From Hormiphora californensis (Eukaryota; Animalia; Ctenophora): a stretch of DNA of 64,000 bases. A program made the position numbers and the translations under genes. The stretch lies in contig CM035352.1 of NCBI GenBank assembly GCA_020137815.1, forward strand, positions 2,728,001-2,792,000. The letters are read 5' to 3'. Below are positions 23,653 to 60,095 of the stretch, piece by piece. Numbering within the stretch: position 1 is the stretch's first letter; the number at the start of each line of letters is the position of its first letter. Below the pieces are notes generated by a model. That model worked only from the letters and a program-made list of their open reading frames with translations, searched no databases and was not told the DNA's origin.

Positions 23653-26600
23653 TCAATTATCGAACTCGATTTCACTGTCACTCAGCTCCTCCGAGTCCAC
23701 TAGATCTGCAGCAGTGTCACTGCTAACATCCTCCTCCTCCTCCTCCACTGATCCATGATCTTCCTCTTCTATATCTTCCCCTTCTTTATCTTCCCCTTCT
23801 TTATCTTCTTCCACCACTTCATTCCCAGCCTTCTTCCCCTTCATTTCCTCTGATTGGCGTGGCATGATACAGGGTCTCTCGGGGTGAACCATGTGCAAAT
23901 GAGTCCTTAGTCCTTTCAATGAAGGGTTCAGATACGAACAATAAACGCATTGGTAACTCGAAGGATTATCGTGGAGCTTCAAATGTTTTTGAATGTCTGC
24001 AAATGCTTCATCCCTCTGGGAAGTGTAGTCGCACCGGGGACATTGAACCGCCATGGGAAGATCGGAGTGGAACTCTTTCTGGTGAGCACGACGGTCAGCC
24101 CTAGTCTCACCAATATAAAGACAATAGGGACATTTGAAAGAGGTTTTATCTTTGAGTCGTTTCACGTTCGGTTCGTACATTTTAACGTCCAGCAGTTTTC
24201 CCGGGTGTACTTTTGTGACATGGAATTTTTGGGCTTTCATCTCTTCACTCAAATAATCGCAATACTTGCAGACATAACCGGTAGATCTCAAATGGGCCTT
24301 CATATGTTTCCCCAGTGTTTGAGATGCATATTTTCCTGTTGTGAAAAACCGACATTTCGGACATTGCATCTTAATTCTGTCCACTTTTTCTTTTTTACCC
24401 TTCCCTTCTCCGGTTCCATATTTACCGGTAGCCTTATACTCTGTCGAGGGATCATCAGGCTTCAATTTAAGGGTAAATGGTAAACCAGGGTGATGTTTTT
24501 TGTGGTGGCTTACCTGCCCCTTAAAGGACATGTTCAAAAAAGGGCAATGTTCACATGTGTAGTTGAGAGGGGAGTTGTGGGCCTTGATGTGTTTAGCAAG
24601 TTTCTGGGAGGAATGCACTCCTGTAGCAACAAATGGACACGATAGACACGGTCTTCGATCTTTAGTCCCTTCACTTTCCATTACATCATCTTCATCATGG
24701 GTCTCTTGCTCGGTAGTTTGCCCTTCCTTTTCTAATTCATCATCTTCTCCGACTGTTTCCTCGTCTTCTTCAATTGTATCATTATCATCATTATCAGTTT
24801 CTGCCTCATCTTCATTGTCCTCATCTGATTCCTCCTGAGCCCCCACCTCATGCCCACTGACGTTGCAGGCTTCCTTCCACCTCTGTCTGGGAAGATCCCG
24901 ATGCTTGTCCGTATGGTGCCTCCGCAAGTGCCTCTTTGAGAGACACATGTAAGAACAGTACTGACAGGTGTAGTTTACACGAGAGCGGTGGGCCTTTATG
25001 TGGTAAGCCATCGCCCGAACGGTATCCGGTACATAGTCACACTGTGAGCACTGTTCACCACGGGCATACTTTACTTGGGGATCAGCTGACTCTTTTGTAG
25101 AGTGGTACTTTCTTTTGTGTGTAGTAAGAAAGCTATGTCTGCTGGTAAGGAAGGGGCAAAGATCGCACTTGAAACTCCCCGGGTCCTTATGAAGTTTCAT
25201 GTGTCTGTTCATGGTGACAGTTCTCCAGCCGTCGTTCCCCTGATGGACTGTTAGTGTGTACTCACAAATATCACACTTCATATCACTGGACATGGTGACT
25301 TTACCAGATCCAGTAATGCTTGGTGTTGGTGACGTAATCTCCCCTCCACTATCAGCCGTGCACTGGAAGCCATCATCATCACCAATCGATTCTGTAATGG
25401 CTGGTGTAGGCATCTTTATGGGTTTCAGGGACTCATCAGGGTGGTAGCGCTCTCATATGCTGGATGTAGTTTTTGCGAGTTCCCAAGAAATGACAAGCAT
25501 CACAGCTGTATGCGTCATCTAGAAGGTGGGCTTCTGTATGTACGGTTGCTGGTCGACCTTTGTAACCTCGCCATGGACATTTTGGGCAAGAAACTTTAGG
25601 TTTATTTTGTGTAGTCATTTCCTTGGGTTTGAGGGGCTCATCCGGGTGATAAGCCTTCATGTGGCAGATGTAGTTTTTGCGGGTTCCCAAGAAATGACAA
25701 GCATCACAGCTGTATGCGTCATCTAGAAGATGGGCTTCTGCATGCACGGTTGCCGGTTGACCTTTGTAACCCCGCCAGGGACATTTTGGGCAAGAAACTA
25801 TTGGTCGATTCTTTCCGATAGACAAAGGATGTTTGATCTTGAGTATCAAGGGTGGTTTACTGGTCTGACCACTAGGCCTCAGTAACACTTGGTTTGGAAC
25901 TCAGTTGCGGACTTGGTTTGGTAATTGACGTGATCGGCACTGCTGTACAGTCTATCGGCTTCACGGGCAGTCCCGGGTGAAGTTTCCTCATGTGCTGCCT
26001 GTAGTTTTTACGATTTCCCAAGAAATGGCAAATAGTCGCAGAGATATGAGTTATCTAGAAGATGGGCTTCTGCGTGCAAGGTTGCTGGTGGACCTTTAAA
26101 ACCAACCCAAGGGCATTTCGGACAGGATGTCAATGCACTTTTTTTCTCTACTTTTTGCTTACCACCATTCTCCACGGCTACATCAGTCGGAATCATTCTA
26201 CAACAGAAACACTTCCCGTTGTTGAAACTTTGAGAGGTTTAATCCTTAGGAACAGTGGTTCTGGAATGTTAGTTGGAGTAGAATCAGCTTCAATTTTCTT
26301 AGTCAGCACTTTCGATTGGTGCTACAACTCTCTTATCCATAATCGGTGCACCCCGGTGGTTTTTCCGCATGTGTTTCCAATAACTCTCGTATTTTGCACT
26401 AATAAAATAGCAGATTTCACAGCGGTAAGTCTCAGGCTGACGATGGGCCTCAGCGTGTCGGTAGGCCACATAACCAGTAGGCCCCTTCCAGGGACACTCA
26501 GGACAGGACACACGTTTGTGTGTTCCTTTTGCACTGCCTTTCACTTCATTCGTTCTATCCTCCTCAAAACCAGGATTCATCGTAAGATTCATCAGAAGGT

Positions 26601-28539
26601 TTCCGTGTCTTCCATGCTGGATCGTTAGGGTGAGGTGGGACGTTAGCTGGTAGACCATCATGCTTTCGATGCACGTGCTTTTTATAATTGCTGTAATACA
26701 CAGAGAGGAATAAGCAGTGTTCACACTTTGTAGCTCCATGGGGAGGCATGTGCTTTGATGTGTGCTGACATTACTATAGAGCTCAAGTGAAACCATCCAC
26801 AATGAGGGCACAACTGACTACTGCTGGCTCCAGTTCCACATTTCCTCCGTTTTTCACCCCGTCCTGAACGATCTCCTTTACTAACACTCTTGCTCGGGCT
26901 AGGGGGTTCCTCTCCTTCCCACTGTAAAGGTGTTACTTTTCCCACTTTCAGTCTGGTCCGGGTCATCTGGATGAGGTGGAAGGGTAGCAGGTAATCCCGG
27001 ATGCTGCCGATAGACGTGCCTCCTGTAATTTCTGTGGCTAACAGTTAGATAGAGGCAATACTCGCACTTGTAGTTCCATGCTGCCTCATGTGCCTGGATA
27101 TGTAGATCCATCACTGTGACGTGTCTGTGACGCCAGACACAATAAGGACAGGTAATCCCGTCTTCGGGGTGACGCTGTAAGTCTTGCGGCTGATTGGGAT
27201 GTTGCTTATTACAGTGTGCTTTGAATAGTTTGTAGTCTACTGTGATATATAGGCAGAATTCACACTTGTAATTCCAAGGTGCCTCATGTGCCTCGATGTG
27301 CCGAGCCAAGACCTTGTCACTTTTCATCTGTCGATTCCATGCACAGTAAGGGCAGCCGTTTGTATTCTTGGTTTCGTTTCCGTCCGGTACCTCCTCCCCC
27401 TCCTCTCCCTCACTTTCATCGCCATCCCCTTCATCGGATAACTTCCGCTTCACGCCTTGGGTACTGGCCTCTTCTTGTTTGTCTTCATCTGGATGAGGTT
27501 GAAGGGTAGCAGTTAACCCAGGATGCTGCCGATAGTTGTGCCTTTTGTAATGACTGTAACTAACAGTGAGATACAGGCAATATTCGCACTTGTAGTTCCA
27601 TGCTGCCTCGTGCGCCTGGATGTGTAGGGCCATGTGACTTGAGTTGTTGTGATGCCATGCACAGTAGGGACAAGTAATCTTATACTTCGTCTCCTTCCTA
27701 TTTGGTTCTTCTTCGTTCTCTTTGGTCCCTTCTGTCTCTCCCTCCTCTCCCTCACTTTCATCTCCATCTTCCTCATTGGACAATTTCCGCTTCACACCTA
27801 GGGAATTACTGGCCTCGTCTTCGGGATCACGTTGAACGTTGTGTGGAAGATTGGGATGTTGCCTATTTGAATGTTGTCTATAAAGGCTGTAATTAACAGT
27901 GAGATACAGGCAATACTCGCATTTGTAGTTCCATGGTGCCTCGTGTGCCTGGATGTGTAGGGCCATGTGACTTGAGTTGTTGTGATGCCATGCACAGTGA
28001 GGGCAACTCATTTTCTGGTTCCTACGTTCATTTTCAAAGTTTGCTCCCTTCTTCTCTGCAGGCTTTCCGTCACCATTATTTGTGGGGTGTTCTGAACGGA
28101 CATGGATGGACAATTTGGAGCGATCCGTTGTTGTGTAGGTGCACTGGGAGCAGAACAGTTTATCAGACTGCCGTGCCCGCTTTCCTCCGCCCTCCCTGTG
28201 AGTCTTCATGTGTTCCAATACCCTGATTTGACAGGTATCCTTGAAGTCACAGTACATACATTCCGCCCTTTCATCTTCCACCTCCCTTTCACTCTCCTCC
28301 TCTTCTTCAGACTCCAACAACTCAGGATGAAATCGCCGGATGTGAGCTGTAAACTCTCCAAACTCCTTACTCCTAAAGGCGCAGTGGTAGCAGCGATGGT
28401 CAGGAAGGAAGCTATGTCGTTGAGACATGTGAGTGTTGTACTGGTCAGCTGTTTGACAGGAAAAGTTGCAGGCCGAACAGGTGAACTCATACTGATTGTT
28501 GAATAGCTCACTTTCATCTTTTTCTTCTTCGATAGACAT
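23653..28539 (-). CDS. Large intronless multi-C2H2 zinc-finger protein (~1600 aa if continuous), with several frameshifts between ~25430 and ~26930
   Basis: Repeated CxxC..H...H doublets (CPYCAW..H..AHEA.WNYKCEYCLY..H...HP) run through ORFs 26899-28632, 26721-26966, 26564-26749, 26299-26811, 26008-26196, 25436-25888 and 23653-25413. The ATG at 28539 matches the paralogue's start (MS.EEEKD.SELF). Confidence 0.8.
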
Positions 28540-29106
28540 TCGCCTAGGAAAAGTTGAGATTATTTCGTGATATTTGCAAGGCAATGCAGTAAGAAAAGGG
28601 TGCTGAAACGAAACAAAAACAGGCGAAAACAAAATTTAAAAAAGGTGCTTAAAAAAAGAGAAAATCGAACGAAATTTTTTAAAAGTTTATGCTTAGCTGA
28701 GCCGCGCATTAAATGGCAGGGCTTTAACATTTTAATCTGCGCGTTACATCAATCGTGTCGCGCACGCCGCTCTGATAAAATGTCAAATTTATTATTTTTA
28801 ACTTTAAACTTTTCGTTGTTGCTTTCTTCCAGGCCCCGTTTGTTTCTGTCAACCTCGGGGCCTGGCCCAGCCTCCTTAGCTCCTTACACGGTCGCTTGTA
28901 GTGGGAAAACGGTAATGGAAAACGAAGATACAGTAAGACGACGCGCAACCGTGACCAATCAGGGCGCTAGTACGTGCTGACACATGAACTTTTTGCCACG
29001 CGTTATGCACCGTGCGCGTCTCCTTACTGTATTTTGCGTTACCGTATTTTGACTGCAAGCAGCACTGTAAGCAAAACATCACAAAATAATATTTTTTCCT
29101 AGTCGA

Positions 29107-30801
29107 ATGTCTGTGGAAGAAGAAAAAGATGACAGTGAACTATTCAGTAATCAGTATGAGTTCACCTGTTCAGCATGCAACTTTTCCTGTCAAACAGCTG
29201 ACCAGTACAACACTCACATGTCCCAACGACATAGCTTCCTTCCCGACCATCGCTGCTACCACTGCGCCTTTAGGAGTAAGGAGTTTGGAGAGTTTACAGC
29301 TCACATCCGGCGATTTCATCCTGAGTTGTTGGAGTCTGAAGAAGAGGAGGAGAGTGAAAGGGAGGTGGAAGATGACAGGGCGGAGTGTATGTACTGTGAC
29401 TTCAAGGATACCTGTCAAATCAGGGTATTGGAACACATGAAAACTCACAGGGAGGGTGGAGGAAAGCGGGCACGGCAGTCTGATAAACTGTTCTGCTCCC
29501 AGTGCACCTACACAACAACGGATCGCTCCAAATTGTCCAACCATGTTAACTCCGAGCACACCTCAAAGACTGCATCTAAAAGAGAAATACCCGATAAAAA
29601 GGTAGCACTCATCGAAAATGAACGAAATGGTCAGAGAGTACCTGAAAAAAATATAACATGTCCCAAATGTCGGTTTATTGCAACTGGAAGATTTGCCGCC
29701 CAAACCATTGCAAAGCACATCAAGTTACACTCAGTGACGACGGGCCCGACATATGTCTGTAGGTACTGTGACTATTTGAGTAAGGCGAAGGAGTCTCAAC
29801 ATACCCACGCTCGACAGTTTCACAAAGGGAAGGCACCGATCTTTGACATTAAAACGCCTGATAAGGGTCCTTTGATGCCACCCACTTCCGATCCCACTGG
29901 CTGCCAAACAATACCCCAGTGCGAGTCTTTACCGGTGATACCGACGCCTAATACAGATCAGATCTCCAAGGCTACACCAGTTAAACAGACAACCACTACT
30001 CAAAATGATAGCTCATCTGACAGTGATTCAAGTATAATGCCAACTGGAGAACAGATATCGTGCCCTAGGTGCGAATACACAACACACTCTAAAGCGGGTA
30101 TGAAGATTCACATAGCGTTACATGACTCTGATGGAGTAGTGTATAAGTGTCCGTATTGTTCCTATCTGAATAGAACCATGTCCAAACAGCGGAAACACAA
30201 AAGAAAATTCCATCCTGGTCTTCCTATGCTGGTTAAAACTAAACCGATAGAGACTACATGCCTGAATAATGCATCTGAAGCCCAGGTTCAGAATTTAAAG
30301 AAGTGTCCTGAATGTGAGTATACCAGAACGGGAGAGACGGCAGGTCATTACATCAAGAAACATCTTGAAGTCCACAAGTCTCCATGGTGTTACAAGTGTA
30401 ATTATTGCCCTTTTATTAACCTATCATATGTAGGGCAGAAGCAGCATGTCATCCAGAAACATCCTGGACTTCCACTGAATCTGGAACCCCACCCATTAGA
30501 CACTTCAGATAGATTGGGTTTGGGACGGCCGGAGCGTAATAAACATATTAAAACTTTGTTTGGGAACGGTGAAACAGGGTCTAGCAAGGCAACTAAAACT
30601 ACTAAAAGTACCAAACCTATCAAAAGAAAAAGGGGCAGACCTAGGAAGGTTCGGAGAAATCCTAAAAAAGAGGAAGAAAATAATGAGGTGGTGATGAAAT
30701 GTGAAGATGAAGAACAGTATCATGATCAGTATGGTAACATGGAGAGTGCCGATGAATTGGATTTGAGTGAGAGTGAATTTGGGAAAATTATTGGGTTATG
30801 A
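29107..30801 (+). CDS. Intronless C2H2 zinc-finger protein with C-terminal AT-hook (564 aa)
   Basis: Intact ORF with about ten C2H2-type fingers and KRKRGRPRK near the C-terminus. Confidence 0.9.
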   Translation: MSVEEEKDDSELFSNQYEFTCSACNFSCQTADQYNTHMSQRHSFLPDHRCYHCAFRSKEFGEFTAHIRRFHPELLESEEEEESEREVEDDRAECMYCDFKDTCQIRVLEHMKTHREGGGKRARQSDKLFCSQCTYTTTDRSKLSNHVNSEHTSKTASKREIPDKKVALIENERNGQRVPEKNITCPKCRFIATGRFAAQTIAKHIKLHSVTTGPTYVCRYCDYLSKAKESQHTHARQFHKGKAPIFDIKTPDKGPLMPPTSDPTGCQTIPQCESLPVIPTPNTDQISKATPVKQTTTTQNDSSSDSDSSIMPTGEQISCPRCEYTTHSKAGMKIHIALHDSDGVVYKCPYCSYLNRTMSKQRKHKRKFHPGLPMLVKTKPIETTCLNNASEAQVQNLKKCPECEYTRTGETAGHYIKKHLEVHKSPWCYKCNYCPFINLSYVGQKQHVIQKHPGLPLNLEPHPLDTSDRLGLGRPERNKHIKTLFGNGETGSSKATKTTKSTKPIKRKRGRPRKVRRNPKKEEENNEVVMKCEDEEQYHDQYGNMESADELDLSESEFGKIIGL

Positions 30802-35165: not shown

Positions 35166-38100
35166 ATGGCTCGAGGCTCCCACTCAATTCAGAACGAGTC
35201 GGAGCCGCTCCTTTCAGCCTCGGACGATGAAGAGCTTGATGGGCCACCCCGGGACCACTACTCTCTCTCCTACATCGCCATGATAGTGTTCGGTCTCTCC
35301 GCTCTTCTTCCCTGGAACATGTTCATCACTGCTACCAGCTATTTCGAGACAAAGTTTGCTACCGGCAGCCCTTTTATCAAGAACCAGTATGAGAATTTCT
35401 TCACGATATTCTCACAAATCACATCGGTGGCATTTCTGTTCATCAACGTGCACCTCCAGAGTCGGTTCAGTGCGTTCTCCAGAATCATGGTTACCCTGGT
35501 AACGATGTTGGTGTTGTTCACTATGACAACGGTGCTTAGCAAGGTCAACACAACGGAATGGACAGACGGGTTCTTTGCTCTTACATTGGTGACGATAGTG
35601 CTGTTTAATGCGTGTACAGGGGTATTTCAGGGTGGTATATTCGGTCTGGCTGCATCCTTCACACCTCGCCACACTCAGGTAACAGCTTCAATTATAGAGA
35701 TATTTGAACATCACTTTCGTTTCACAGTTGGGTCAGAAGGTTTAAAAGCGACTTGAGGGTAGGTGAAAGATAACATGAGGCGGTTTTTTAGTACAGGGAG
35801 GGGGTGAAGTGTCAATTTACAGCTGTCTTATCAACACCATGCATATTATTCTGTGATGCAGGCGTGCTATCTAGAAATCCGAGAAAAGTGTCCTGGAGTA
35901 TTTTCTAGATTTATGGTTTCAGCCGTTAATACCCCTCCCTTATTTCAGGGGTTTATGAGTGGTCAGGGAGTAGCAGGAATCTTTGCAAGCGTTGCCAGTA
36001 TCATTTCCCTAGCCGTAACACATGGTAAGATTACTGAATGCTTCTTGATGACTAACTGAACACTAATAACAATGACCTTTTGTAGCGAGTTCATTTCTAT
36101 TACTACAGGAAAGAGTACTACATATAATCCCCCTATTTTACAAAATATCGACCCTGAAGCAAGTACAGAACTCTAAAATCCCCCGTTTTTTAGGTGACGA
36201 TCCTGTGGCGAGTGGATTCTATTATTTCTTTGCAGCAACTGTTGTCATAGTACTCTCTATGGCGATGTACCCCATATTCCTACAGCTCCCGATCTCTAAA
36301 TTCTACCTGGATCAAGTAGTGGACGAGGTTAGTCTGTCTGTAGAGTCCTCCCTCTGACGAGGTTTGTTTGTCTGTAGAGTGCTCTCTCTGTTCGTTTGTC
36401 TGTAGAGTCCTCCCTCTGACGAAGTTCGTTTGTCTGTAGAGTCCTCCCTCTGACGAGGTTAGTCTGTCTGTAGAGTCCTCTCTCTGACGAGGTTCGTTTG
36501 TCTGTAGAGTCCTCCCTCTGACGAGGTTAGTCTGTCTGTAGAGTCCTCCCTCTGACGAGGTTAGTCTGTCTGTAGAGTCCTCCCTCTGACGAGGTTAGTT
36601 AGTCTGTAGAGTCCTACCTCTGACGAGGTTCGTTTGTCTGTAGTCCTCCCTCTGACGAGGTTCGTCTGTCTGTAGAGTCCTCCCTCTGACGAGGTTCGTT
36701 TGTCTGTAGAGTCCTCCCTCTGACGAGGTTTGTTTGTCTGTAGAGTCCTCTCTCTGTTCGTTTGTCTGTAGAGTCCTCCCTCTGACGAGATTCGTTTGTC
36801 TGTAGAGTCCTCCCTCTGACGAGGTTAGTCTGTCTGTAGAGTCCTCCCTCTGACGAGGTTAGTCTGTCTGTAGAGTCCTCCCTCTGACGAGGTTAGTCTG
36901 TCTGTAGAGTCCTCCCTCTGACGAGGTTAGTCTGTCTGTAGAGTCCTCTCTCTGACGAGGTTAGTTAGTCTGTAGAGTCCTACCTCTGACGAGGTTCGTT
37001 TGTCTGTAGAGTCCTACCTCTGACGAGGTTCGTTTGTCTGTAGTCCTCCCTCTGACGAGGTTCGTTTGTCTGTAGAGTCCTCCCTCTGACGAGGTTCGTT
37101 TGTCTGTAGAGTCCTCCCTCTGACGAGGTTCGTTTGTCTGTAGAGTCCTCCCTCTGACGAGGTTAGTTAGTCTGTAGAGTCCTCCCTCTGACGAGGTTAG
37201 TCTGTCTGTAGAGTCCTCCCTCTGACGAGGTTTGTCTGTAGAGTCCTCCCTCTGTACCAGACCTGAGTAGCAGTGCCATCCCTTGTAGGGAACTACTCTA
37301 CCATTTTGTTTGTTTGTCTGTCTGTGTCAGACTATTATAAAACTTTACAGAGGGCACTCTCAGTTTTACATCATGTATTACTGAAGTGTACACTGGAAGT
37401 TTACGACTGTTCTATGTCGGTAAACCGTTTACTGTTGAACCCAGTCCTTATCCAGTATCAAGCTTACACTTTCCCTGTCTTTGGACTGCAACCAAACCAA
37501 TACAGCATGATTCACACACTTACACACATAAACTATGTCTTGAGATCCGAGAGCTAAATTCGTGAAAACTCAAATAGGTCTCACCTAACTGACAATGTTG
37601 CACAGCCCATACCATGACACGTGTGCTATACACGTGGGTAATTAGATAACTTTCTGCGTGCTCCCAGAGTCCCAATTGGACGTCCACTGATCTATACTGT
37701 ACATGTGCTGTTTGTCTGTGTACTAATTTAGAAAGTACCATCAGTATATCTTCTTTCTACGTTTCTCTCTACTTCTCTTTACTTCTTTCTATTTCTCTCT
37801 ACTTCTCTATAATTCTTTCTATTTCTCTCTACTTCTCTCTTCATTTCCGGTACACGGCTCAATTAAAAGTAGCTCACTAATCACTCGACTTTCAATTATT
37901 GTGGACGGGTCTGTAAATAATCTCTACATCAAGTCTACACCTCAATTAAATGTTTTAATAATCCCTTCCAGTGATAACCACTGCTAAGTTCAACCTCCGT
38001 CCAACTATTTCCAGTTCTAACCATCCCAGCCCTGCGCTAACCATTCCAACACTGTTCCAACCCTGTTCTAACCATCCCAACCCTGATTCTAACCACTCCC

Positions 38101-38678
38101 AGCTAACCACCCTTCTTTTTCAGTTATCCCACTCCTTCCGGTCGCCCACTGTATCAACCATGTCGATAATCAAGAGGATAAAATGGATGTTATTCTCTGT
38201 CTGGTTCACATTTACTGTCTCCCTGTCTGTATTCCCCGCTCTAACAGCCTCTATAAAGAGTGTCACGGCTGACACACCTCTCACTACAACCTACTGGACC
38301 CCAGTCACCTGCTTTCTCCTCTTCAATTTCGGTGATTTTGTAGGACGAACAGTAGCCGGATCTGTTCAACTTCTCAACCAACGGTGGCTTGTCATCTTGA
38401 CAGTAGCCCGGGTAGTCTTTATACCACTGTTTGCGTTGTGCAACACCCCCGGGACAGCCCATGCTATGTGGTTTGATAGCGATGTCTACCCCATTCTCTT
38501 TATGAGTCTATTCTCTCTCACTAACGGGTACTTTGCTAGTTTGGCGATGATGTATGGCCCTTCTCTGGTGCCACCCGGACCTGAGTCCAGCACAGCAGGG
38601 GCATACATGGCATTCGGGCTCGGAACGGGTCTTATGACAGGGGCCTTTTTATCGTTTGCAGTGAACGCTGTATTATAA
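35166..38678 (+). CDS. Equilibrative nucleoside transporter (SLC29/ENT); exons 35166-35678, 35949-36024, 36194-36327, 38124-38678
   Basis: PRDHY..YIAMIVFGLSALLPWNMFITA, MSGQGVAGIF, FTVSLSVFP, FLLFNFGDFVGR and FSLTNGY are ENT signatures. Phases are consistent. Confidence 0.93.
36328..37254 (+). repeat. 34-bp intronic minisatellite GTTAGTCTGTCTGTAGAGTCCTCCCTCTGACGAG, ~28 copies, starting exactly at the ENT exon-3 donor
   Basis: Directly visible. Variant units recur (28-nt units at 36362 and 36728; 32-nt units at 36628 and 37028). Confidence 0.95.
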
Positions 38679-39046: not shown

Positions 39047-40443
39047 AGGAACCATAATAAAGTTCAAGAGCGTACCCTATCCAAGAGCGCACCACCTCCA
39101 AAAGACACCACTTCAAGAGCGGGTAAGTCGGAAAAACGTGTCCGTTTGTCTCATGAGGCCTCATGAGGCGCCTCATGAGACCTCATGAGGCACTCATGAG
39201 GCGCCTCATGAGGCCTCATGAGACATTTTCAGCTGTTTTAGTGCCTCATGAGGCCTCATGAGACATCATGAGGCGCCTCATGAGGCACTCATGAGGCCTC
39301 ATGAGGCCTCATGAGACACTGCTCATGAGGCCTCATGAGACATGTGCCTCATCCCGACTTTGTTTTGATGTCTCATGAGGCCTCATGAGCAGTTTTGACA
39401 TGAGGCATGTCTCATGAGGCCTCATGAGGCATATCTCATGAAACCTTAAAGTTAGTATAGCTATAGGATTAGGGTTAGGGTTAGGAATAGGGTTAGAGTT
39501 AGGACCGGGTTTCTGTTCCAGTTAGGAGTACGAACCTAACCACTAAGCCCTAACCACTAAGCCTAGGGGTTAACCCCAACCAATAGGCGTAGGCCTAGAA
39601 GTCTATCCTTAACCCTAACATTAACCCTAACCTTAATCCTAATACCAACCTAAAGTTAGGGTTAGGATTAGTGTTTGGGTTAAGGATTGAACCCTAGGCC
39701 TTGGACCTAGGTTTATCATATAGTCATAAAAGTTTGGGGTTAACCCCTAGGCCTAGTGGTTAGGCTCGTACCCCTAACTGGAACCGAAACCCGGTGCTAA
39801 CTCTAACCCTAGCCTTAACCCTATATGGCTATACTAACTCTAAGGTGTCATGAGATATGCCTCATGAGGCCTCATGAGACATCAAAACAAAGTCGGGATG
39901 AGGCACATGTCTCATGAGGCCTCATGAGCAGTGTCTCATGAGGCCTCATGAGGCCTCATGAGTGCCTCATGAGGCGCCTCATGATGTCTCATGAGGCCTC
40001 ATGAGGCACTAAAACAGCTGAAAATGTCTCATGAGGCCTCATGAGGCGCCTCATGAGTGCCTCATGAGGTCTCATGAGGCGCCTCATGAGGCCTCATGAG
40101 ACAAACGGACACGTTCTTCCGACTTACCCAAGAGCGCACCACATCAAAGAGAGCTCCCCATACAGAAGATACCGCGCGCAGGGGACACCACGCGCAGAAG
40201 AGACCGCACGCGCAAATACAACGCCGCGCTGGTCTCTTCTGCGCGTGGTGTCCCCTGCGCGTGGTATCTTCTGGATGGGGAGCTCTCTTTGATGTGGTGC
40301 GCTCTTGAAGTGGTGTCTTCTGGAGGTGGTGTGCTCTTGGATGTGGTCTCTTTTGGGTGTGGTGCGCTCTCAGGTGTGGTCTCTCTTCGATCGGGTGCGC
40401 TCTTGGGTGCTCTTGGAGGCTCTTGAACTTTATTATGGTTCCT
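39047..40443. mobile_element. Palindromic MITE with TA target duplication (host of a nested element)
   Basis: TIR AGGAACCATAATAAAGTTCAAGAGC / GCTCTTGAACTTTATTATGGTTCCT flanked by TA; long imperfect arms; central hairpin ~40140-40300. Confidence 0.85.
39122..40128. mobile_element. Nested fold-back MITE, Merlin-like (GG termini, 8-bp TSD)
   Basis: Ends GGTAAGTCGGAA / TTCCGACTTACC; TSD CAAGAGCG at 39114-39121 and 40129-40136. The empty site is preserved in the host's opposite arm. Arms consist of CCTCATGAGG units; the centre is TTAGGG/CCCTAA-like. Confidence 0.8.
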
Positions 40444-41314: not shown

Positions 41315-42728
41315 ATGAAACTATCTGACTTCACGGCGTTATGCTTCGACATGGATTTCACCATGGTCAATTACAACCTTGATAACTTTATGCCATTCAT
41401 CTACCAGATCACAGCAGATTACCTTATTGATGTCAAGGGGTATTCCAGCAGTCTCAGAGTTTTTGAAGCTAATGACGTACGTATTCAAATTCCTCCAACT
41501 TGTCTCCTTACATACATTTTGATTTAGCTGTTCAAACCATTATTTCATAATTTCCAGGCACATTTTATGAGAAGAGGACTGGTGTTAGACTAAGCGAACT
41601 CACTGTGTTATTGATATAACCTCTAACGGAGGAATTAGAGCGGCCTACAGGGGGACAAAACGTTTATCAAATGGAGAGGTAGATCATTGTTTTTAACTGT
41701 TTCATTTTTAGCCTCGTAGTTATATAGTTTAAAAAATAGCAGTTCAAGATTTTTACCGTATTCCTGATTCCCCTCACTCTTCTCAGATATTCTACCACTA
41801 TCCAGACGGAGCATGGCCGGAATTCCAACGTTTCAGTGAGAACTTTGACTGTGAGAACAACAAACCACTCCACGAAGTCCCCTACTTTATATTCGACTCA
41901 GTGTTTGTTTCCCCGACAGTACCCCTTCTGATGAAGCAGCTAGACATCATATTCACTGATAACCACAGGGTGGACTCGCAGTGTAGGAACTTTTATGTAG
42001 ATCTCATTGCTTCCTTCGTCCACAACTTCAACCCTGATAACAATGCGGGCAGCTACTTCCCTAGCATTGAGCGACATATCGACATGTACATCCTAAAGGC
42101 CTCCACGGAGTTGAGGAATAAGTTGTTAGCACTGCGGGAGGGTGGTACTAAAGTAATTCTAATCACTGCATCTGATATCCCTTACACCGAACTCCTTATG
42201 ACGCACAGTTACGGAAAAGATTGGAGGAGCTTCTTTGATCTGGTCTGCTGTAAAGCGAGGAAGCCAGGTTTCTTCTCCACAACAGCCTACCGTCGGCCCT
42301 TCTTCAGGGATGGGATAGTGGTGGAGGAGTTAACAGGGGGAGGGACCTATATGGAGGGACATTGGACGAAGGTAGACAAGTGGGTGAGACATAACTCAAG
42401 TAAACCAGGTCGTATTGCATATATCGGGGACTCCTTTAAGTCTGATATAATTCCCACCAAAGTGGCAACCTCTTGGGACATTTTAGCGGTGGTGCTAGAG
42501 GGGAAACTAATGCACGTAGCAGCCTGTGAACACAAGAAATCAAGACCAGAAACTATTGGATGGAGTTCCTTCTTCGGTGAGAGGAACGATCCATCCATGT
42601 ACGCAGGCCGTTTGTTCGAGTTGGCTGATTTGACACTGACGGATGTAGAGGAATTGACACTATTGGGGGTTGATCAAGAAATGCCAACAAACAAAACCGG
42701 GAATTCCTTCACTTTTTCACCCTTTTGA
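41315..42728 (+). CDS. NT5DC1: 5'-nucleotidase domain-containing protein (NT5DC1-like, HAD family); exons 41315-41476, 41558-41678, 41787-42728; one apparent frameshift near 41595
   Basis: FDMDFT (HAD motif I), LITAS (II), ARKPGFF (III), YIGDSFKSDI (IV); GLVLD...AYRGTK pattern in exon 2. Confidence 0.8.
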
Positions 42729-43617: not shown

Positions 43618-45071
43618 ATGGATAACGGGGCACCAGATCAGATATTTGAAAATCAGGAAGAGGAAGAGATCCCTCCACCGGCCAGCGACGATTCACCCGC
43701 TGATTCTGCTGAACAGACTACCCCTGATGAACAGACTACTCCTGATGTAGTTCCTGGTGTAGTTCCTGCTAAATCCTCTGAGGATGTTTTACCCCCACAG
43801 GAGGCTGCACAATGTGAACCAGTGGATACACCTGCTGAACAAGTTGTTAATACACCAGTGGATGCAGCTGATGATTCTGCTGAAGCTATGGATGTAGATT
43901 CAGAACCTGCAGACGAAAGCGAAGTTGTACCTGCTCCTAGCGATTCTGTACCTGAGAGCAAGGCTGTATCTGAGCCTAGTGAAGCCGTGCCTGAGCCTAG
44001 TGCAGATAGTACAAAAGAAGCTACTGTATCATCTATTGAGCCCACCACAGAACAACCTGCTGACACTCCTGTAGAGGGCACCTCAGAGATGGAAACTGGG
44101 GAAACTGAAACAGTCCCAACACCGGCAGAGGAAGTTGTCCCAGAAGCCCCGGCAACTGAAGCAACCCCTGTCCCTCAAGCCCCTACAACTGAAGCAGCCC
44201 CAATTATTATTGAGACTCCAGCAGCTACTGAAGGAGGTCCAGTTACCAGTACAGCTGTTGTAGTTACAGAGACTGGGGAGGAAATGGAAGCTACTGTTAT
44301 TGAGCAAACAAATGCTGAGGTATGTCATCCCCCTCTTTCACCTGCTGAGGTATGTCACTCCCCTGAACCACCACAGCCGTGGGACCCCCTCCTCTTCCCC
44401 CTGGAACCCCCCCCCCCTCCACACACACGCCATGTTGTTCCCTAACACATTACCCCACACAGGGACACAAGACGATTGAGCTGTCTATCAACGGTAGCAT
44501 GGTTAGTGCTGAGGTGGTGGATGCAACTGCTACTGATACGACAGGTAATGCACAGTCTATGTAATAGCTCTTAATTCTTACTATTCCATATTCTCAATGT
44601 TGATAGTCGATTGTTTGTATTCCATATTCTCCCACAATCAACTGGGTGTTTTGAACAATATTACCCCCTGTTAACCCCCTAAAACACACAACCCCAATAC
44701 CAGGTGGTGAGCAGGAGAAGTTTGCAGAGATTATTGAGGAGGAGATAGAAGATAGTGGTACTCCTGTAGCAGCCCAGAAAGAGAAAGAGGCGGCAGTGCC
44801 ATCAGATGATGTAGTCACTTCAATGGAAACCACCCAACCAACACCCCAAGATGTACCTCAAGTACCACAACCCCCACAGAGGTATATTATTGAGGGTTCA
44901 ATTTTTTCAAGATGAATGGAGTAGTTTCTCTGTTTAGTTTCTCTGTAGATCCTATCCTATTTCTCGTCTGAATTCTCTGTGTGTGCTGCGTGCTATTCAT
45001 TCTCTGTGTGCTACTCATTCAGTGTAGTATGTGGCCAGCTGTGTGTGTGTGTGTGTGTGTGAGAGGCAGTG

Positions 45072-45161
<90 letters not shown>

Positions 45162-48100
45162 GCTTATTTATCTCCCTTCCTATCTCTATTCTCCCTCTCT
45201 CTATTCTCCCTCTCTCCTTCTCTGTCATTTCTTTCTATCTTGCATATATTCCTTCCCTCTCTACAATTTCTCCCTCGGCCTCATTTATATTCTCTCTCTC
45301 CCTTCTCTCTGTATTTCTCCATTCTCTCTCTCCCTCTCTCTCCCTCCCTTCTCTCTTTATTTCTCCATTCTCTCTCTCCCCGTTCTCTCTGTATTTCTCC
45401 TTTCTCTCTCTCCCTCCCTTCTCTCTGGACTTCTCTTATTTTACTCATCCTCATTTGTCTCTTCTCCCCTCTTCTTACCAATTATCTGATTTCATATGTT
45501 TCTAATATCCCTCCTCCTATTCCATCTCTTCACCCGTTTTATTATTTAATTTGGCTCTATCCCAAAACAAAACACAAATAATTTCCAATCCCAGGAGGCG
45601 TATCCAGGCGAAGGAGGATGCAGCTAAGAAACAGGATGAAACCATGTTGTTGTCGACCAAGAAGATTATTGATAGTACAGATGATGTGTTGAGGTCTGCT
45701 CAGGCGCTCCTGAAGAGTACGAACCAGTACGGCAGTGGAAGGGAAAAGAGGCAGAAGAAGAAGAAGCAGAAGGTAGTAGATAACCTGAAATTACGGGGCT
45801 GATCGGGAATTATGAGATGGACTGAAGTGATGTGTTTTTGACGGTGGGACTGGGATTCATTCTGAACGCGGGGAGGTGCGCGCAGCGGGACATGTGAGAT
45901 CAGTGGCTGTTGAAAGGATGCACTTTGTGCGCGCATTGAACACATTGAAAGTTAAGTGTTGTTAGCGTCCACGATAAACATAGCCCGCCCTTTGGAGAAA
46001 GGAAAGCTGTGCGATTGTTGTTGTACAGAGTGTCCCTGTAAGACTGTTCCCCCATTACTTCAGTAATTATCCCACCCGTCCATCCAGGCGGAAGCTCAGA
46101 AAGAGAAAGAGGTTGATCCCGATTACGATCCTGAAGATGAGTTCGATGACAAGCAGTTCCTTGCTCCTAAGGGTACGTAGCAAATAGTTAGACCCCTGAA
46201 TACTGCCAGAATAGAAGTATCTAATGCCCCCTCTCTCCTTCAATAGATCTAGAGAGTGCAGCGTTTGCTAGTAGGTTACCAGCGGACAGACTGACTAAAC
46301 AGGAGGCGATTAGTTTCTCTGATATTTTCAACGACAAAGAGAAACACCCACATTTCCTTTATATCAGGAACCGACTGGTAAGTTGAGGGTTGTGTGGCTC
46401 ACAATTCTCTGTGAGGATTCTGTAGATCACGATGAATGCACTCCATTATTCTAACACCTTCATTCCCAGTTGTATGTTTGGTTAGAGGACCCAAAGAAAG
46501 AACTAACTGTTGAGAGTGCCCTACCCAGAATTGAGCCCCCTCACCACGGTACGGAGAATGACTGAGGATTCTTCAAGTTAACAGATTTGCCACCGTTAGG
46601 GGAAGTGTATGGTGTAATTGTTCCCGCTCTAACTAATCCCCATCTCCCCTCAGATGATGAACGCCTGGTAAAGCTTGTATTCCAGTACCTAAACAGATAC
46701 GGTTTTATTAACTTTGGTGTCTACACCCCCACAGAAATTCCCCTCCCTACCCCCGCCGTCACTCCTAAAATCCTGGTGGTTGGTGCGGGTGTCTCTGGTC
46801 TCACAGCAGCCAGGCAACTCCAACACTTTGGTCTCAATGTAGAACTGATAGAGGCCCGGTCAGTAGTGGGCGGTAGAGTGTGTACATTCAGGGACGGAGC
46901 CCATACTGCCGATCTAGGAGCCATGGTAGTTACAGGTCTGGGTGGGAACCCTCTAGCAGTACTGGCTAAACAACTAAACCTGGAGTTAATGCCCATCAAA
47001 CAAGACTGTCCTTTGTACGAGTTCACTGGGCAGATGGTGCCCAAAGAGAGGGATGAGAGGGTTGAGAGGGAGTTTAATAGGTTGTTAGAGGCTACTACCT
47101 ACATGTCACATCAGCTCAATGTCAATAGTATCAATGGGAGACCTGTATCTCTTGGACAGGCTCTGGAGATCATCATCAAACTTCAGATCCGACAGGTATA
47201 GTTGAATATTGGGGTGGAATAATTTCAAATTTTGACGTATCTTTTTGTGTTCATTATCGTTTTATTGTTCTTTACATCTCCCCCTGTTCCTAGGTCAAGG
47301 AGAAGCAGCTGAGGCACGGTCGAGAGAGATGTGAGATACAGGACAAACTAAACCATATCCAACAAGCCCTCTTCCCACTGCACGAGAAAATCAAGGACTC
47401 CCACACCAAATATCTCGGTTAGATCAGATTATCTTTTTATTTTATCGATAGAATTGTGAACTATGTTTGTTAATTGAGTTACGAACTTCCAACATCAAAC
47501 CCCCGCCCCCTTTCTTTCCAGAACTAAAGATGAAGCACGAGGAACTGTCAGATCAACTGGGTGAAGTTATCAGGGATCAGAAGGCAGAGTTTGAGGTTAA
47601 CTCAGCCTACAAGGTCATGTTGGAAACATTCGCTGAGTACGATGGCCTCCTAAAGGAGCAGCAGGAGCTGGAGGTGAAGCTGACTAAAATGGAGCAGATG
47701 GTGCCCAATGAGATCTATATGACACCCCAAGAGAGGCATGTTCTGGATTGGCATTGCGCCAACCTGGAGTTTGCCAATGCAGCCCCTCTCTCCGCTCTCT
47801 CACTGAAGAACTGGGACCAGGATGATGATTTTGAGTTCACTGGAAATCATCTTGTAGTACACGATGGGTGAGTTGGTAGTAACTTGATCTAAGTTCTAAC
47901 CCTCCTTTACAATACACCTGCCGTATCTAATCGGGTGAGGGAGGGTCGAGCAAGGGACCGATCTGCTAGACCCTCTCTCATTCATTGAAATAGAACAATA
48001 CACTGGTGCAGTATGAGTTTCAGTATTCTCACTGATCCCACTCTGGCCCAGGATGTCCAAGATCCCGGAGGAGCTATCAAAAGGTCTAAATATCCGATAT

Positions 48101-49287
48101 AACACGGCGTGTGTGGGTATCAAGTATGGAGATGAAGGTGTAGAGATTACAACACGGGAAGTGAGCCAGCTGAATAACGGATGGGCTAATAATACCACAG
48201 AGACAACTACTGCTGACGCTGTTCTGCTTACCATCCCTCTTGGTAGGTCTGACCCCCTCCCCCGGTCAGACCCCTGTCTGAAACTGGGGAACCAGAACCG
48301 CTCTTTATTCTTTAGGGATTTGAAATGTGCTAACAATTCGTATGTTGGCAGGTGTACTGAAGAAAGAGAAGTTGAAGTTTGAACCGCCACTGCCTGACTG
48401 GAAGACGTCTGCAATTAAGCGAATGGGATTCGGAAACCTGAATAAGGTATTGCCAAGGCACCTTTAATTTCTGAAACTGATTGACACGAAATACCTTTCC
48501 CGAAACGCCTGTGTGTGTGTCCTATCTCAAACTACCACCCCATCCCCCCTCAGGTTGTGCTTTGTTTCAACAAGGTATTTTGGGACCCCAGTATTCACCT
48601 GTTTGGTCATGTCAGTAACTCCACCATCTCTCGAGGGGAACTCTTCTTGTTCTGGAGCATTTCCAAGGCACCAGTCCTCATTGCTCTGATCGCGGGAGAG
48701 GCCGCTACTGTGATTGAAACTGTACCAGGTAATTGGGGGAGAGATGTCAACTAGCTGCTTAGCGGTCGAGTTTTGGGATTTTATTTGGAATCACCAATGT
48801 GTGTTTTGAAGAGTCTTTTAATCTACCAAACCCCCTTTCAGATGAGGCAATTGTTGGCCGAGCTATGACGATACTACGGGCAATATTCGGCTTCCAAACA
48901 GTCCCCCAGCCCTGCAAACATCGCGTAACAAGATGGAGGGGCGACCCCTGGGCCCTTGGATCATATTCCTACGTGGCAGCCGGGTCAAGTGGAAATGATT
49001 ATGATGACCTTGCCCGACCTGTAGCACCGGTTAATGGTAAGCAAAACATATATCTCTCTTGGTTTCACAAATTAATCATACAATTTTACAAACAAACTCT
49101 GTACAAACTGTTCAAGATTTCTGAATCCCCTCTCTTTTCAGCTGCGACTGGTCAACCCAGATTGTTCTTCGCTGGGGAGCACACAATTAGGAACTACCCC
49201 GCCACTGTCCATGGTGCTATGTTGTCAGGTCTCAGGGAGGCTGGCCGAATAACCGATCAGTTCGTGGGACCTCCCTATGAAACATGA
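43618..49287 (+). CDS. KDM1A: Lysine-specific histone demethylase 1 (SWIRM, amine oxidase, Tower), ~15 exons, with long acidic N-terminal extension
   Basis: [82 protein letters not shown] (catalytic Lys), [23 protein letters not shown]. Upstream exons 43618-44319, 44463-44544, 44704-44881, 45595-45772 and 46088-46172 join in phase. Confidence 0.92.
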
Positions 49288-49598
49288 GGGGAGGGAGTGT
49301 GGACACTATATTTGTTGAAGCAAGGAAGAATGTTTCCGTTTTTATCGCATTATTATATCGAATTCAATTGTTTATGTTACAGAAACTCTCGATCTATTTA
49401 ACTTCTGGTGAAGCCCGTTGTTGTCGCTCTGTCTCCTCCCGACACTGTTCTAATAACTCATCCAGTACTGTTCTCGGTATTTCGGGCAGTTCCTGTGAGA
49501 GGGGTGTGTTTTAGTAACACGGTGTTACTGCGCGGCGCTAGTTACAATTACAAGATGGTACTGGTGCGCGCACACTCAATGCTGACATTACCACAGTT

Positions 49599-52268
49599 CT
49601 ATAAAACAGAGACCGCGCGGCGTACCTCAGGATCATCACTGGTGAGTTGTGACAACATTTCGTCAATCATCACAATCTTGTCATGTTCCACCTGTTTCTC
49701 CTTCAAGTTGCTGAGGACCCCTTCCCCAAGTTTATCTGCTGATTGGTCGTAGTGGCCTCGTAACCGTGATATCACATCAGTCTGGAGGAGAGCAGTAGTT
49801 TTGTAAAGGTTTGACACGGCTTGCCTCGAAGCTTCCGCCTTCCTCGACCTTGTTTCACCGGGTTTGAACAAAACAAGACATGACATCACGACAAGATTCT
49901 CCAACTCATTGAACACCCCTGATTTTGGAACAAACCTGTGCCGTCAATGTGGTACTCTGTGTGTCCCTGCTACACACACTCAGGGCACTACCCTCCTCAA
50001 CTATCAGTAGAGACTCGATCTCCTTCAGTCTCGTAGCCTCGCTAGGGGTCGCTCTAAAACCCTCATCTTCTAGCACCACAGGCAAATCAGGTCTTTCACT
50101 GACCTCCTGCAGGACACATATAAAGGAGGGTTAGAACATAACAACAGTTTGTATGTTTCTTTAGAATATCATACATATATTGTTGTTGAACAAAATGCAG
50201 GGGTCTATAACTGATTGATTGCTTCTGAATTGTGTAACATCACATTGCACAGAAGGAAGCAGCTTGGGAAAGTGTACCTGGTTATCAATATCCATTAACA
50301 GCTCATTAAGACGTTGTTTCTCCTCCTCGGTCATGGCTATCACTGAAGAGGCATCCTGGGCAAGTTCCTTATTCCTGGAAGATACTTTTAACTCAACAAC
50401 AAGATACAGAGTTAGGGAGCATAAAGGAGAGGTTAGAGCATGGATGACAATATAAAGGTGGCGCCGTGGCGGATTGGCCGATTGGCGGGGTCATCCAATT
50501 CTCTAGGAGTACAAACAACTGTACCTGGCGATGAAGTTCCTATTGTTTACAGATTTCTTATCCTCCTTAGCCCTCCTCAGCCCAGTACTACTTGCAGTTT
50601 TCTTGCTCCCTCGAGTGGTATTGGTCCTTGTAGAAGACAGTTTAGTAGTACTACTCTTTGCAGATATCGACACCGAATCATCCTCTATTTGTGTTGCAAA
50701 GATGGGTGGAAGGTCTGTTACAGAGGTGAGTTCTCCATCATCAATAATACTAACAGCCTCCCCCTCCTCCTGTTGCTGTTGCGATGGCGGTTCTACCAGA
50801 TCTTTACCAGCGTTGTAGAGTAGCAGCTGTCGGTTCATCACCTCTCTCTGCTTTTTAACCTGAAACATCGTGTCGTTATGAGTGAATTAACCATCTAAGA
50901 GACCAATATCACTGGGGGTAAGTAGGTAGAAGAACAACAAACCTCTTTCTCTTTCCGTACTATCATTTTGAGTTGGTTATCCAGTTGCTTCATCTTTAGG
51001 GCTGCTTTCCTGACTTTCTTATCCGGATGAATCGCCAACAATTCGTACATTCCCATTCTGAGAGTGGTGAAATTGGAAAGCACTGTGTGGTACATTATAC
51101 CAGATCTCACGAGAATGGACATTTTCTAATTCCTAAACCTACTTTTTAAAGACAGGTTTCTCTTCCTCTGTCTCCCCTGCTTGTGGTTCCTCATCCCCAC
51201 CAGCAGCAGACACACTTGTTGGTGGGCGAGTGGAGGCATCATCCCTCAGTGTTGACAGATCATCATCTGTCTGAGGCTCTGGGAGGACATCTTCCTCTCG
51301 GTCAGGTGTCTCCACTCTGACACCTGATCTTGGTGTCACCTCTGGAGTTATATCAATCGGAGGGAGCTTTAACTCGTCTTCAGCAGGTTCAGAGAGTTCT
51401 GTCTCTATGGAACCCAATGCTTCCTTAACAGCTTCCTCGTGACTCTCGAGGTGGGATGCTATCTCTTCCCCAAGGGAACCTGATAAAATAGAAATCTGTT
51501 AATCACACACTCTTGAAGACACAGCTGTTTACCGATCGAGATCCCCTTTGATTTGAATTCAAAAGTGCGATCGGTTCTGCCGCCCTAGAGAGCGAGAAAA
51601 TTACCAGCTGCAGGTTGCGAAGGACCCTCTCGAATCTCTCTTATCTCGGCCAGGAACTTCTCCAGCTCTTTATCAATCTTTAGATGAGCTTCCTCGTTTA
51701 GCTTTGAGGAGGGTAGTTCCCCCTCTTCAAATACAGAAACAGGCTTGTCAAGAAGGGACATCACTCCCGTGTTACTTTGTACTGTGTTTCGGAGGTTTGA
51801 AACCATTCCGTCCAAGAATTTCCTGGTTTCTTCACTAACTGGATGATCCTTTTTGACCTGAAAACAATTTTAGTATCACGAAGATCCATCGATGAGCTGT
51901 ATGTTGCTATCTGTGAGTAAAACAATTCTTTACCTTTTCTGGTTTTGGTACCGGGTTATTTTCAACCCACGATTCGGTTTTCTTCTGAAGGGCTATCCTA
52001 GACACAGCAGGAGGTGGTTCTGACCATGCTTCTCCAATTGTCGGTGGTCCCCAGCCTCCTTCAACCCTGAATAAAGTATCGAGATAAATGATATTTAGTA
52101 ATTTAGTAGTTACCAAAATATAATTTTATATACAGTTAGCTTTACTCACCCTGTTTCAGGCATTATCTCCATTGTGCTGGGAGTGTTCTGTGCCGAGGTT
52201 CGACGGACATGTGGCGATGTCAGTTTCTCGCGACGTGGATCATTCATATCTGTACTTTGTCTAGCCAT
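49599..52268 (-). CDS. FSIP1: FSIP1-like (fibrous sheath-interacting protein 1) coiled-coil protein, multi-exon
   Basis: VRKAALKMKQLDNQLK..RKEKEVKKQ and NFIARNKELAQD...MTEEEKQRLNELL match recalled FSIP1 motifs. Upstream exons from the ATG at 52268 splice in phase. Confidence 0.65.
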
Positions 52269-53480
52269 GGGGTGTATGGAATATTAATTAAATATTTTAT
52301 GAACGGCCTACGCTATACACACTGGCACACTTATCGCACTAAGAAGGGCTTCCCCTCTTCATTGTCAATAATGACCATCTGAGCAAAGAGACCTGAGTCG
52401 ACCCGAAAATCGAAATGATACGAATTACAAGGTTAAAAACGGTAAACGGATTACGAATACCATGGGGAACTGGAGATTGAATTCTAGAATTCGGATTATA
52501 GGGGTCCCTAATTCCCTTAAAATTCAGCCTTGATTCTTGACAGTTTTTACACAGACTTAATACACTCGTTTACGTTACAACCAGTCCCAGAGCGGCACGG
52601 CTCGTATTTTTTGCAGTATTTTTTTCGCCATGGCGGTCGCCGGTCAATTCAGTCAAATTCCTCGGTGACCGGAGGAATTTGTGTGATTGAATTGACCGCC
52701 GTGGCAAAAAGAAAATACTGCACATGCATGAGGGGGCACATTCCTGATTCCAGTGGCTCATTTCAAAACTTTGCGAACTTTTCGTGTTTTTTTTGGTTAA
52801 AAAGGTCAAAAAAAGTTTAAATTTTTAAAACGATTTCGCGAAATTTCGTTTCCACCGCGCGGCGTTCGGTAAAGTTTGCTGCAAACCACGCGCGGAGTCA
52901 GTTCAATTTCCAAATTTTGTTTGTTTTTTTGTTCCCGTTTTTTTTCTTCACTTTCAAAAGCGCTGCCTTTTTTTAGGCCAGCGTTAAAATCTGGGTGTTT
53001 TGGGAGTGCTGACAAACGGTTTTTTAGGGTTAGGGCTAAAGTAGGGTTAGGGTTAGGCCTTGAGATTCCCTACCAGATAAACTTTGAATCAGCCAAAACG
53101 GTTGAGTGGTTTGGCGGTTAGAGCCATTTTAGTGAATCAACTTTTTTGGCAGCGCGCACCTGTAAACAGGCCTCCAAACACCCAGATCGTAACGGCGCCC
53201 TTTTTTATATCCCGCGCTCGGCGCTGCCAACACTTCATATCACGCATCAAATCAATCAATCAATCAATTGTTGTCACGGATCATTTCCGAATAACATCGT
53301 CACCAGGGCTAAACTTTGTAGCAATTGGAGTTTTGAACTCGGCTTGCGCCTTGCAATAGTTACTGCTGCATTTTCTATGGAGGAACTAATTTATTATTTA
53401 ACCTTTTCTAAAAATTCTATGGTTAACCTTTTTTCCCTCCTTGCAGGATCAGGACACTTTATGGTATGTCCACCGGATAA

Positions 53481-59736: not shown

Positions 59737-60095
59737 CACGTAATATAGGGTCTGAGTGAATCAAGGGAGGGAAATAATGAGATAATTACTGGTGTAGTGG
59801 ATTTGAAATGACATATCATATGCATGCTTTTTACTCAAGAAGACGAAAAGAAAAAAGAAGAAAATAAAAACAGGAAAAGACAGAAAAAAAGAAAAAAAAA
59901 AAGAAGGGAACGGGTTGATTCGTACCCCTTCATGTGAACCGTTTATTTTGGAGCAAATTGTTCCGAAAGGTATTTTTCCAAATTGGAGTTTAAGTGATTT
60001 TGTGATTTTGACTTTTTGTGATTAAATTATTGTTTTTTAAGTTGATTATTTGAACCGAAAAATGGTGACTTTGTTTTATAAAATGTTTTAAATTA

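What the first reader, a model, noticed from the sequence alone, without database searches (positions are those of the whole stretch)
36322..37254. Tandem array of splice-competent units that could insert variable numbers of in-frame SPPSDE micro-exons into the ENT loop
Seen: ENT exon 3 ends GACGAG|GTTAGT and ~28 units of 34 bp follow immediately. A typical unit parses as 16 nt GT(T)..CTGTAG plus 18 nt AGT CCT CCC TCT GAC GAG (SPPSDE; variants SPLSDE, SPTSDE). The 18-mer ends in the same GACGAG as the real exon and is followed by a new GT. The intron is phase 0, so each 18-mer is in frame, while read-through of the first unit hits TGA. Established: this position is the large cytoplasmic TM6-TM7 loop of SLC29 transporters, a regulatory region, and it is unusually short here without inserts. 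Inference: 16 nt is too short to splice, but donor-i to acceptor-j jumps could add 0 to many Ser/Pro/acidic hexapeptides, or the array could act as decoy/poison donors. It may also be a neutral minisatellite; the acceptors lack an obvious CTAAC branch point.
Basis: partly seen in the sequence, partly recalled or inferred. Interest (0 to 1): 0.8.

Follow-up and report, generated by a model that had tools for sequence, protein, structure and literature searches.

The report
Comb-jelly splice-donor "mirage" minisatellite
In a likely comb-jelly nucleoside-transporter gene, a 34-base piece straddling an exon end is repeated 28 times into the intron, a repeat type already known from lancelets and human genes, and the in-frame six-residue "micro-exon" in most copies is likely a chance by-product that splicing would skip.

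Summary
The array is real: 28 units of 34 bp (36322-37254). The first unit spans the intron-3 donor of a four-exon ENT/SLC29 gene, 71% identical to a Bolinopsis (ctenophore) protein. 23 of 27 complete units hold the in-frame 18-mer, and 11 repeat the donor exactly.

The micro-exon reading is weak. The proposed acceptors score below 27 of 28 gene-model acceptors from this window and have another AG 5-14 nt upstream (0 of 28 real ones do). 18% of simulated donor-spanning duplications give such an in-frame cassette by chance. Variants show no protein-level constraint. Direct exon 3-exon 4 splicing gives a 27-residue loop segment, the same length as in close relatives, so nothing is missing.

No transcript covered the junction, so splicing is untested. 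Best reading: a tolerated donor-spanning minisatellite (amphioxus "mirage", human F7 IVS7 type), spliced at the first donor; any later donor includes a premature stop. Earlier scan notes report the same repeat type at other loci of this genome. Ordinary; low interest.

The parts
35166..35678 (+). ENT (SLC29) exon 1, coding part from ATG
   Evidence: stop-free spliced model; tblastn of Bolinopsis P0007, 74%; one X1 contig lies on it
35949..36024 (+). ENT exon 2
   Evidence: model; X1 contig joins it to exon 3
36194..36327 (+). ENT exon 3, ends after TM6 at the start of the cytoplasmic loop; its last 6 nt are the first 6 nt of the array
36328..38123 (+). ENT intron 3, phase 0, 1796 nt, the longest of 28 modelled introns in the window
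   Evidence: position likely shared with a Bolinopsis-cluster relative (P0013 starts MQ|LSRSF; inference)
36322..37254 (+). 34-bp minisatellite, 28 units; unit = 6 exon nt + first 28 intron nt; 24 downstream donor-like sites (11 identical to the real donor); 366-bp higher-order period
36355..36357 (+). in-frame TGA at the junction of units 1 and 2; included by every downstream-donor product
38026..38123 (+). real acceptor region of intron 3, with a degenerate 20/31-bp repeat and several CTAAC-like branch motifs
38124..38678 (+). ENT exon 4 (rest of loop, TM7-11, stop)
   Evidence: PF01733 E=2e-44; one X1 contig lies on it

Best explanation
This is a 34-bp minisatellite whose first unit spans the intron-3 splice donor of a nucleoside-transporter gene, likely a tolerated by-product of local tandem duplication that the spliceosome would skip by joining the first donor to the normal acceptor. 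Shown: each unit is the last 6 exon bases plus the first 28 intron bases; 12 of the 18 cassette bases are intron sequence; the TGA and the CTGAC exist only at copy-to-copy junctions; any later donor includes that TGA. Inferred: a short duplication was amplified by slippage or unequal exchange (an ~11-unit block repeat is visible); the most upstream donor is chosen, as shown for human F7; rare downstream-donor products would be truncated and mostly cleared.
For: Proposed acceptors score -3.6 to -9.5 against 1.9 to 14.9 for 27 of 28 gene-model acceptors (weakest -4.0) and a median of -2.5 for 100 decoy YAGs. 26 of 28 have another AG 5-14 nt upstream; 0 of 28 real acceptors and 55 of 100 decoys do. 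An in-frame, stop-free cassette arises in 1296 of 7098 simulated duplications of 26 other donors, and in 4 of 26 at the exact geometry. Cassette variants: 3 non-synonymous types to 1 synonymous (neutral expectation 42:12), and one of two cassette deletion types breaks frame. The direct splice gives a gap-free 27-residue loop segment, equal in P0001/L001, P0007, P0008 and L002; no SP[PLT]SDE in any protein held at that point. A second, two-copy donor duplication sits at 44310-44360. Precedents: F7, CBS, 6-16, LAMIN B2, PDGF (PMC1557585); amphioxus mirages (PMC3087553; PMC3902484).
Against: No transcript spanning exon 3-exon 4 was seen, so first-donor use is inferred from mammals and amphioxus. 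CTGAC lies at -21 in 24 of 28 units, a combination seen in only 3.6% of simulated units. In CBS and 6-16 two further donors are used. The splice model rests on 28 hand-picked introns from one window, and four variant types give little statistical power.
Confidence: 0.75

Rival explanations
1. Leaky decoy donors act as a dose control. Some transcripts use a downstream donor copy, include the TGA and are truncated or degraded, so array length or unit type would tune transporter output.
For: 11 copies equal the real donor (score 7.7) and 12 more score 5.6-6.3. All 27 downstream positions give the same premature stop, more than 50 nt upstream of the junction from unit 3 on. Two extra donors are used in human CBS and 6-16 (PMC1557585 introduction). 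No RNA structure hides the copies.
Against: Only the first donor is used in F7, LAMIN B2 and PDGF. Amphioxus mirages do not disturb splicing. No evidence here of regulation or conservation.
Confidence: 0.15
2. One reading: donor-to-later-acceptor jumps splice in 0 to about 9 in-frame SPPSDE-type hexapeptides, making a length-variable loop.
For: 22 of 27 units are AG + 18 nt + GT in a phase-0 intron. Branch-like CTGAC at -21 in 24 of 28. Jumps of three units or more exceed the shortest modelled intron, 74 nt. The loop tolerates change in hENT1 (PMC4583308).
Against: Decoy-level acceptor scores, G-rich tract and intervening AG. The branch motif abuts the previous unit's donor. Chance rate 18%. 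No constraint on variants. Loop length is fixed in relatives. The eMIC microexon machinery arose in bilaterians and needs long AG-free zones (PMC8797185).
Confidence: 0.04
3. The array, or its copy number, is partly an assembly artefact.
For: The window has frameshifts in otherwise intact P5-ATPase and 5'-nucleotidase coding regions, and no DNA run could be laid on the array.
Against: 13 unit variants with shared diagnostic changes and an 11-unit periodicity look like real turnover. The flanks and gene model are clean.
Confidence: 0.04
4. Recursive stepping: the GAG|GT at each unit end serves as a zero-length exon, so the intron is removed in steps, with the same final mRNA.
For: These AGs follow a C-rich tract and score about 0, better than the proposed micro-exon acceptors.
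Against: GAG is used by 0 of 28 modelled acceptors (25 CAG, 3 TAG). The intron is only 1.8 kb.
Confidence: 0.02

Closest known systems
Human F7 IVS7 37-bp VNTR, with CBS IVS13, 6-16, LAMIN B2 and PDGF minisatellites (PMC1557585; abstract, introduction and discussion read)
   Same: First monomer spans an exon-intron boundary (4 exon + 33 intron bp in F7; 6 + 28 here), so identical donor pseudo-sites follow the real donor; 6-16 has 25 pseudo-sites, this array 24.
   Different: Non-mammalian. More units than F7 (28 vs 5-9). Units also hold a weak YAG with an in-frame 18-mer. Polymorphism and splicing outcome are not measured here.
Amphioxus 'mirage' minisatellites: Adh3, BflGb6/BflGb9, troponin C, PGBD5 (PMC3087553 and PMC3902484; abstract of the first and passages of both read)
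   Same: Tandem copies of an exon-intron boundary, unit within the 10-160 bp range, many but not all units keep splice signals, signs of repeat turnover.
   Different: Found in a likely ctenophore. Allelic length variation and undisturbed splicing were shown in amphioxus and are untested here.
Schistosoma micro-exon genes (PMC10526429; abstract read)
   Different: MEG exons (3-81 bp) are separated by long introns of up to 5 kb and have verified products. Here the spacers are 16 nt, the units are near-identical copies, and no product is seen.
eMIC/SRRM4 neural microexons (PMC8797185; passages read)
   Same: 18-nt, frame-preserving size; branch-like motif upstream.
   Different: These need long AG-exclusion zones and pyrimidine tracts, absent here. 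The programme arose in bilaterian ancestors.

Membership tests
Boundary-spanning minisatellite (mirage / F7-IVS7 type) | Tandem repeat whose first unit spans an exon-intron boundary | tested here: met
   Unit = last 6 nt of exon 3 + first 28 nt of intron 3; 28 copies
Boundary-spanning minisatellite (mirage / F7-IVS7 type) | Many but not all units keep the splice signal | tested here: met
   24 donor-like sites, 11 identical to the real donor; one has lost GT and two have lost the exon hexamer
Boundary-spanning minisatellite (mirage / F7-IVS7 type) | Repeat turnover within the array | tested here: met
   366-bp higher-order period; unit difference lowest at lag 11, 2.75 vs 4.35-6.55 at lags 1-15
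Boundary-spanning minisatellite (mirage / F7-IVS7 type) | Length variation between alleles | not testable with these tools
   No genome held; no DNA run listed
Boundary-spanning minisatellite (mirage / F7-IVS7 type) | Normal splicing at the authentic site predominates | tested here: inconclusive
   No laid contig crosses the exon 3-exon 4 junction; relatives' continuous reading frames match the direct splice
Micro-exon gene (Schistosoma MEG type) | Short exons separated by long, spliceable introns | tested here: not met
   Spacers are 16 nt; the shortest of 28 modelled introns is 74 nt
Micro-exon gene (Schistosoma MEG type) | Transcripts with variable exon inclusion | tested here: inconclusive
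   No coverage of the junction
eMIC-type microexon | Long AG-exclusion zone and pyrimidine tract before the acceptor | tested here: not met
   Zone of 5-14 nt in 26 of 28 units, 4-6 G in the tract vs a real median of 0
eMIC-type microexon | Host encodes an eMIC domain | not testable with these tools
   No genome held; the paper places its origin in bilaterians
ENT/SLC29 transporter (host gene) | PF01733 match and alignment to ENT proteins across the 11-helix body | tested here: met
   PF01733 E=2e-44 for exon 4; 71% to Bolinopsis ENT3-like; P0001 matches human ENT1 structure 6ob6 at E=2e-71

The most novel reading that the evidence does not exclude
A minisatellite acts as a micro-exon ladder. 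Each unit supplies a branch point, acceptor, 18-nt in-frame cassette and donor, so splicing jumps between units add a variable number of Ser/Pro/acidic hexapeptides to the transporter's cytoplasmic loop, with the range set by array length. This would be a micro-exon system born in one duplication step in a non-bilaterian animal.
Probability: 0.04. Interest if true: 0.8.

Novelty: new member of a known kind. Interest (0 to 1): 0.17.

Why it matters
As read here it matters little: one more donor-spanning minisatellite. It does offer a natural test of whether a ctenophore spliceosome picks the most upstream of 12 identical donors, as the mammalian one does for F7; all alternatives carry a stop, so the read-out is clean. 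If the micro-exon ladder were real, it would show a repeat creating frame-preserving alternative exons in one step, outside Bilateria.

Tried and rejected
RNA: no RNA holder listed (2 runs, RNA status guessed). On the gene, X1 gave 3 contigs and X2 none; no contig covered the array or the exon 3-exon 4 junction, which is no evidence either way. The second lay (45600-64000) served only to confirm introns. Whole genome not held, so no genome-wide scan for similar arrays. Exon-3 protein search: 0 of 7 candidates passed. L003 is frameshifted and does not reach the loop; L004 is distant. RNA folding of 36280-36560: z=+1.74, 195 of 200 shuffles fold as well, so structural masking of decoy donors was rejected. 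The unit has no match elsewhere in the window or in L001-L004, which gives no sign of a dispersed element. Intron set: one 5'-nucleotidase intron dropped (frame failed) and three minus-strand candidates not used. The LSD1 homologue search served only to validate the intron set. Paper searches with no hit; one search listed no ctenophore microexon study among 3 papers; the library lacks most subscription papers. PMC10078293 and PMC2812944 (passages) gave general background only. Earlier-finding look-ups by sequence, words and near place were empty. No supplements were read.

Full report
Observation. TRF reports an array at 36322-37254, period 34, 28.0 copies, 91% matches, with a 366-bp higher period. 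It starts 6 nt before the end of exon 3 of a four-exon gene (35166-35678, 35949-36024, 36194-36327, 38124-38678) that translates to a stop-free 425-aa protein; intron 3 is phase 0 and read-through stops at codon 10. Exon 4 matches PF01733. Of 27 complete units, 23 carry the 18-nt cassette (18 SPPSDE, 3 SPTSDE, 2 SPLSDE), 2 a 12-nt and 2 an out-of-frame 16-nt version. The description is accurate.

Host. The modelled protein is 71% identical to Bolinopsis microptera ENT3-like proteins, so the host is most likely a ctenophore. Earlier notes say Pleurobrachia; I did not test that. A contig of run X1 joins exon 2 to exon 3 at the modelled intron, with one differing base, so the gene or a near-identical one is spliced as modelled there. 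P0001 aligns with the human ENT1 structure, placing intron 3 just after TM6. In hENT1 this loop is about 60 aa, variable, has predicted CK2 sites, and is dispensable for transport (PMC4583308, abstract and passages).

Is the loop missing something? No. The direct splice gives 27 residues between Y234 and W262, without gaps and equal to P0001/L001, P0007, P0008 and L002. L001 and L002 read through all three intron positions, so I take them as transcripts (inference). Among 51 more distant relatives of 350 aa or more, the median is 36, the range 16-116, and 7 are 28 or less. The short loop is thus the norm for close relatives. P0013 begins MQ|LSRSF, which suggests the same intron in a Bolinopsis-cluster relative (DNA not seen).

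Anatomy. Each unit is 6 exon bases plus the first 28 intron bases. Only DE of SPPSDE is exon-derived; the real exon ends QVVDE. The stop codon and the CTGAC arise only where one copy meets the next. Unit differences are lowest at a lag of 11 units, as expected after a block duplication. The unit occurs nowhere else in the window.

Are the splice sites usable? I modelled 28 plus-strand introns by eye. They are supported by stop-free spliced frames for five of seven gene fragments, 53% identity over 688 aa to an LSD1 homologue, three X1 joints and one loose end; one further intron was dropped. Their lengths run from 74 to 1796 nt. Donors: 11 copies equal the real donor (7.7) and 12 score 5.6-6.3, within the real range. 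Acceptors: the proposed sites score -3.6 to -9.5; 27 of 28 real ones score 1.9 or more (leave-one-out; weakest -4.0) and 100 decoy YAGs have a median of -2.5. They hold 4-6 G in the tract (real median 0, maximum 4), and 26 of 28 have another AG 5-14 nt upstream, against 0 of 28 real and 55 of 100 decoy sites. The two units with a long AG-free zone lack it.

Chance. I built 7098 simulated units from 26 other donors (unit 25-45 nt, 3-15 exon nt). 55% had a YAG, 18.3% an in-frame stop-free cassette, 12.4% also a read-through stop, and 3.6% also a branch-like motif; at the exact geometry 4 of 26 had a cassette. The simulated units overlap and are not independent. A second donor duplication lies at 44310-44360, and unreviewed earlier notes report many more in this genome, so some in-frame cases are expected. 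Cassette variants comprise 3 non-synonymous types and 1 synonymous type, near the neutral 42:12, and one of two cassette deletion types breaks frame. This is low power but shows no constraint.

Mechanism. The array was likely born by short tandem duplication across the donor and amplified by slippage or unequal exchange (inferred). Every downstream donor would include the TGA and cut the protein at 250 aa, before TM7, so a working gene must mostly use the first donor. Human F7 shows this: a 37-bp VNTR spanning the donor, where only the most upstream site is used by oriented scanning. CBS and 6-16 leak to two further sites; LAMIN B2 and PDGF do not (PMC1557585). Amphioxus mirages leave splicing undisturbed (PMC3087553; PMC3902484). 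That ctenophores behave the same way is inferred. No transcript crossing this junction was available.

Comparison. It is a member of the boundary-spanning minisatellites on the three features I could test; allelic variation and splicing outcome remain open. It fails the tests for Schistosoma MEGs (long introns; PMC10526429 abstract) and eMIC microexons (long AG-free zone, bilaterian origin; PMC8797185 passages). My 10 paper searches listed no case of a minisatellite spliced as a micro-exon ladder and no ctenophore mirage, within the library's limits.

Verdict. Real feature, known kind. Tolerated donor-spanning minisatellite 0.75; leaky poison donors 0.15; micro-exon ladder 0.04; artefact 0.04; recursive stepping 0.02. 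Interest 0.17.

Noticed in passing
window 44310-44360: Two-copy duplication of a donor with its flanks, 30 bp apart, in the first modelled intron of the LSD1-like gene: a second, minimal mirage.
   Followed up: partly
window 38026-38105: Degenerate 20/31-bp repeat just before the real intron-3 acceptor, multiplying CTAAC-like branch motifs.
   Followed up: no
window 55820-55850, 56000-56010 and 41585-41600: Frameshifts inside otherwise intact P5-ATPase and 5'-nucleotidase coding regions; assembly indels or recent pseudogenes.
   Followed up: partly
window 57150-57930 vs 58415-59300: The last exons and 3' region of the P5-ATPase gene are duplicated at 70-85% identity. A second version of an exon end with its donor lies at about 56890-56950 (read by eye). 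Possible alternative C-termini.
   Followed up: partly
window 39120-40130: About 1-kb palindromic element (80% self-complementary) with 10-bp repeat arrays in both arms and telomere-like hexamers in the centre; possibly a foldback or MITE-type element.
   Followed up: partly
window 244-2665: 32-bp minisatellite of about 30 copies followed at once by about 29 inverted copies, forming a large palindrome.
   Followed up: no
window 43618-49288: LSD1/KDM1A-like gene modelled as 14 introns and 1082 aa, with a long acidic N-terminus.
   Followed up: partly
window 23653-30801: Cluster of long C2H2 zinc-finger ORFs on both strands, two of them near-duplicates at the N-terminus (26899 and 29071).
   Followed up: no
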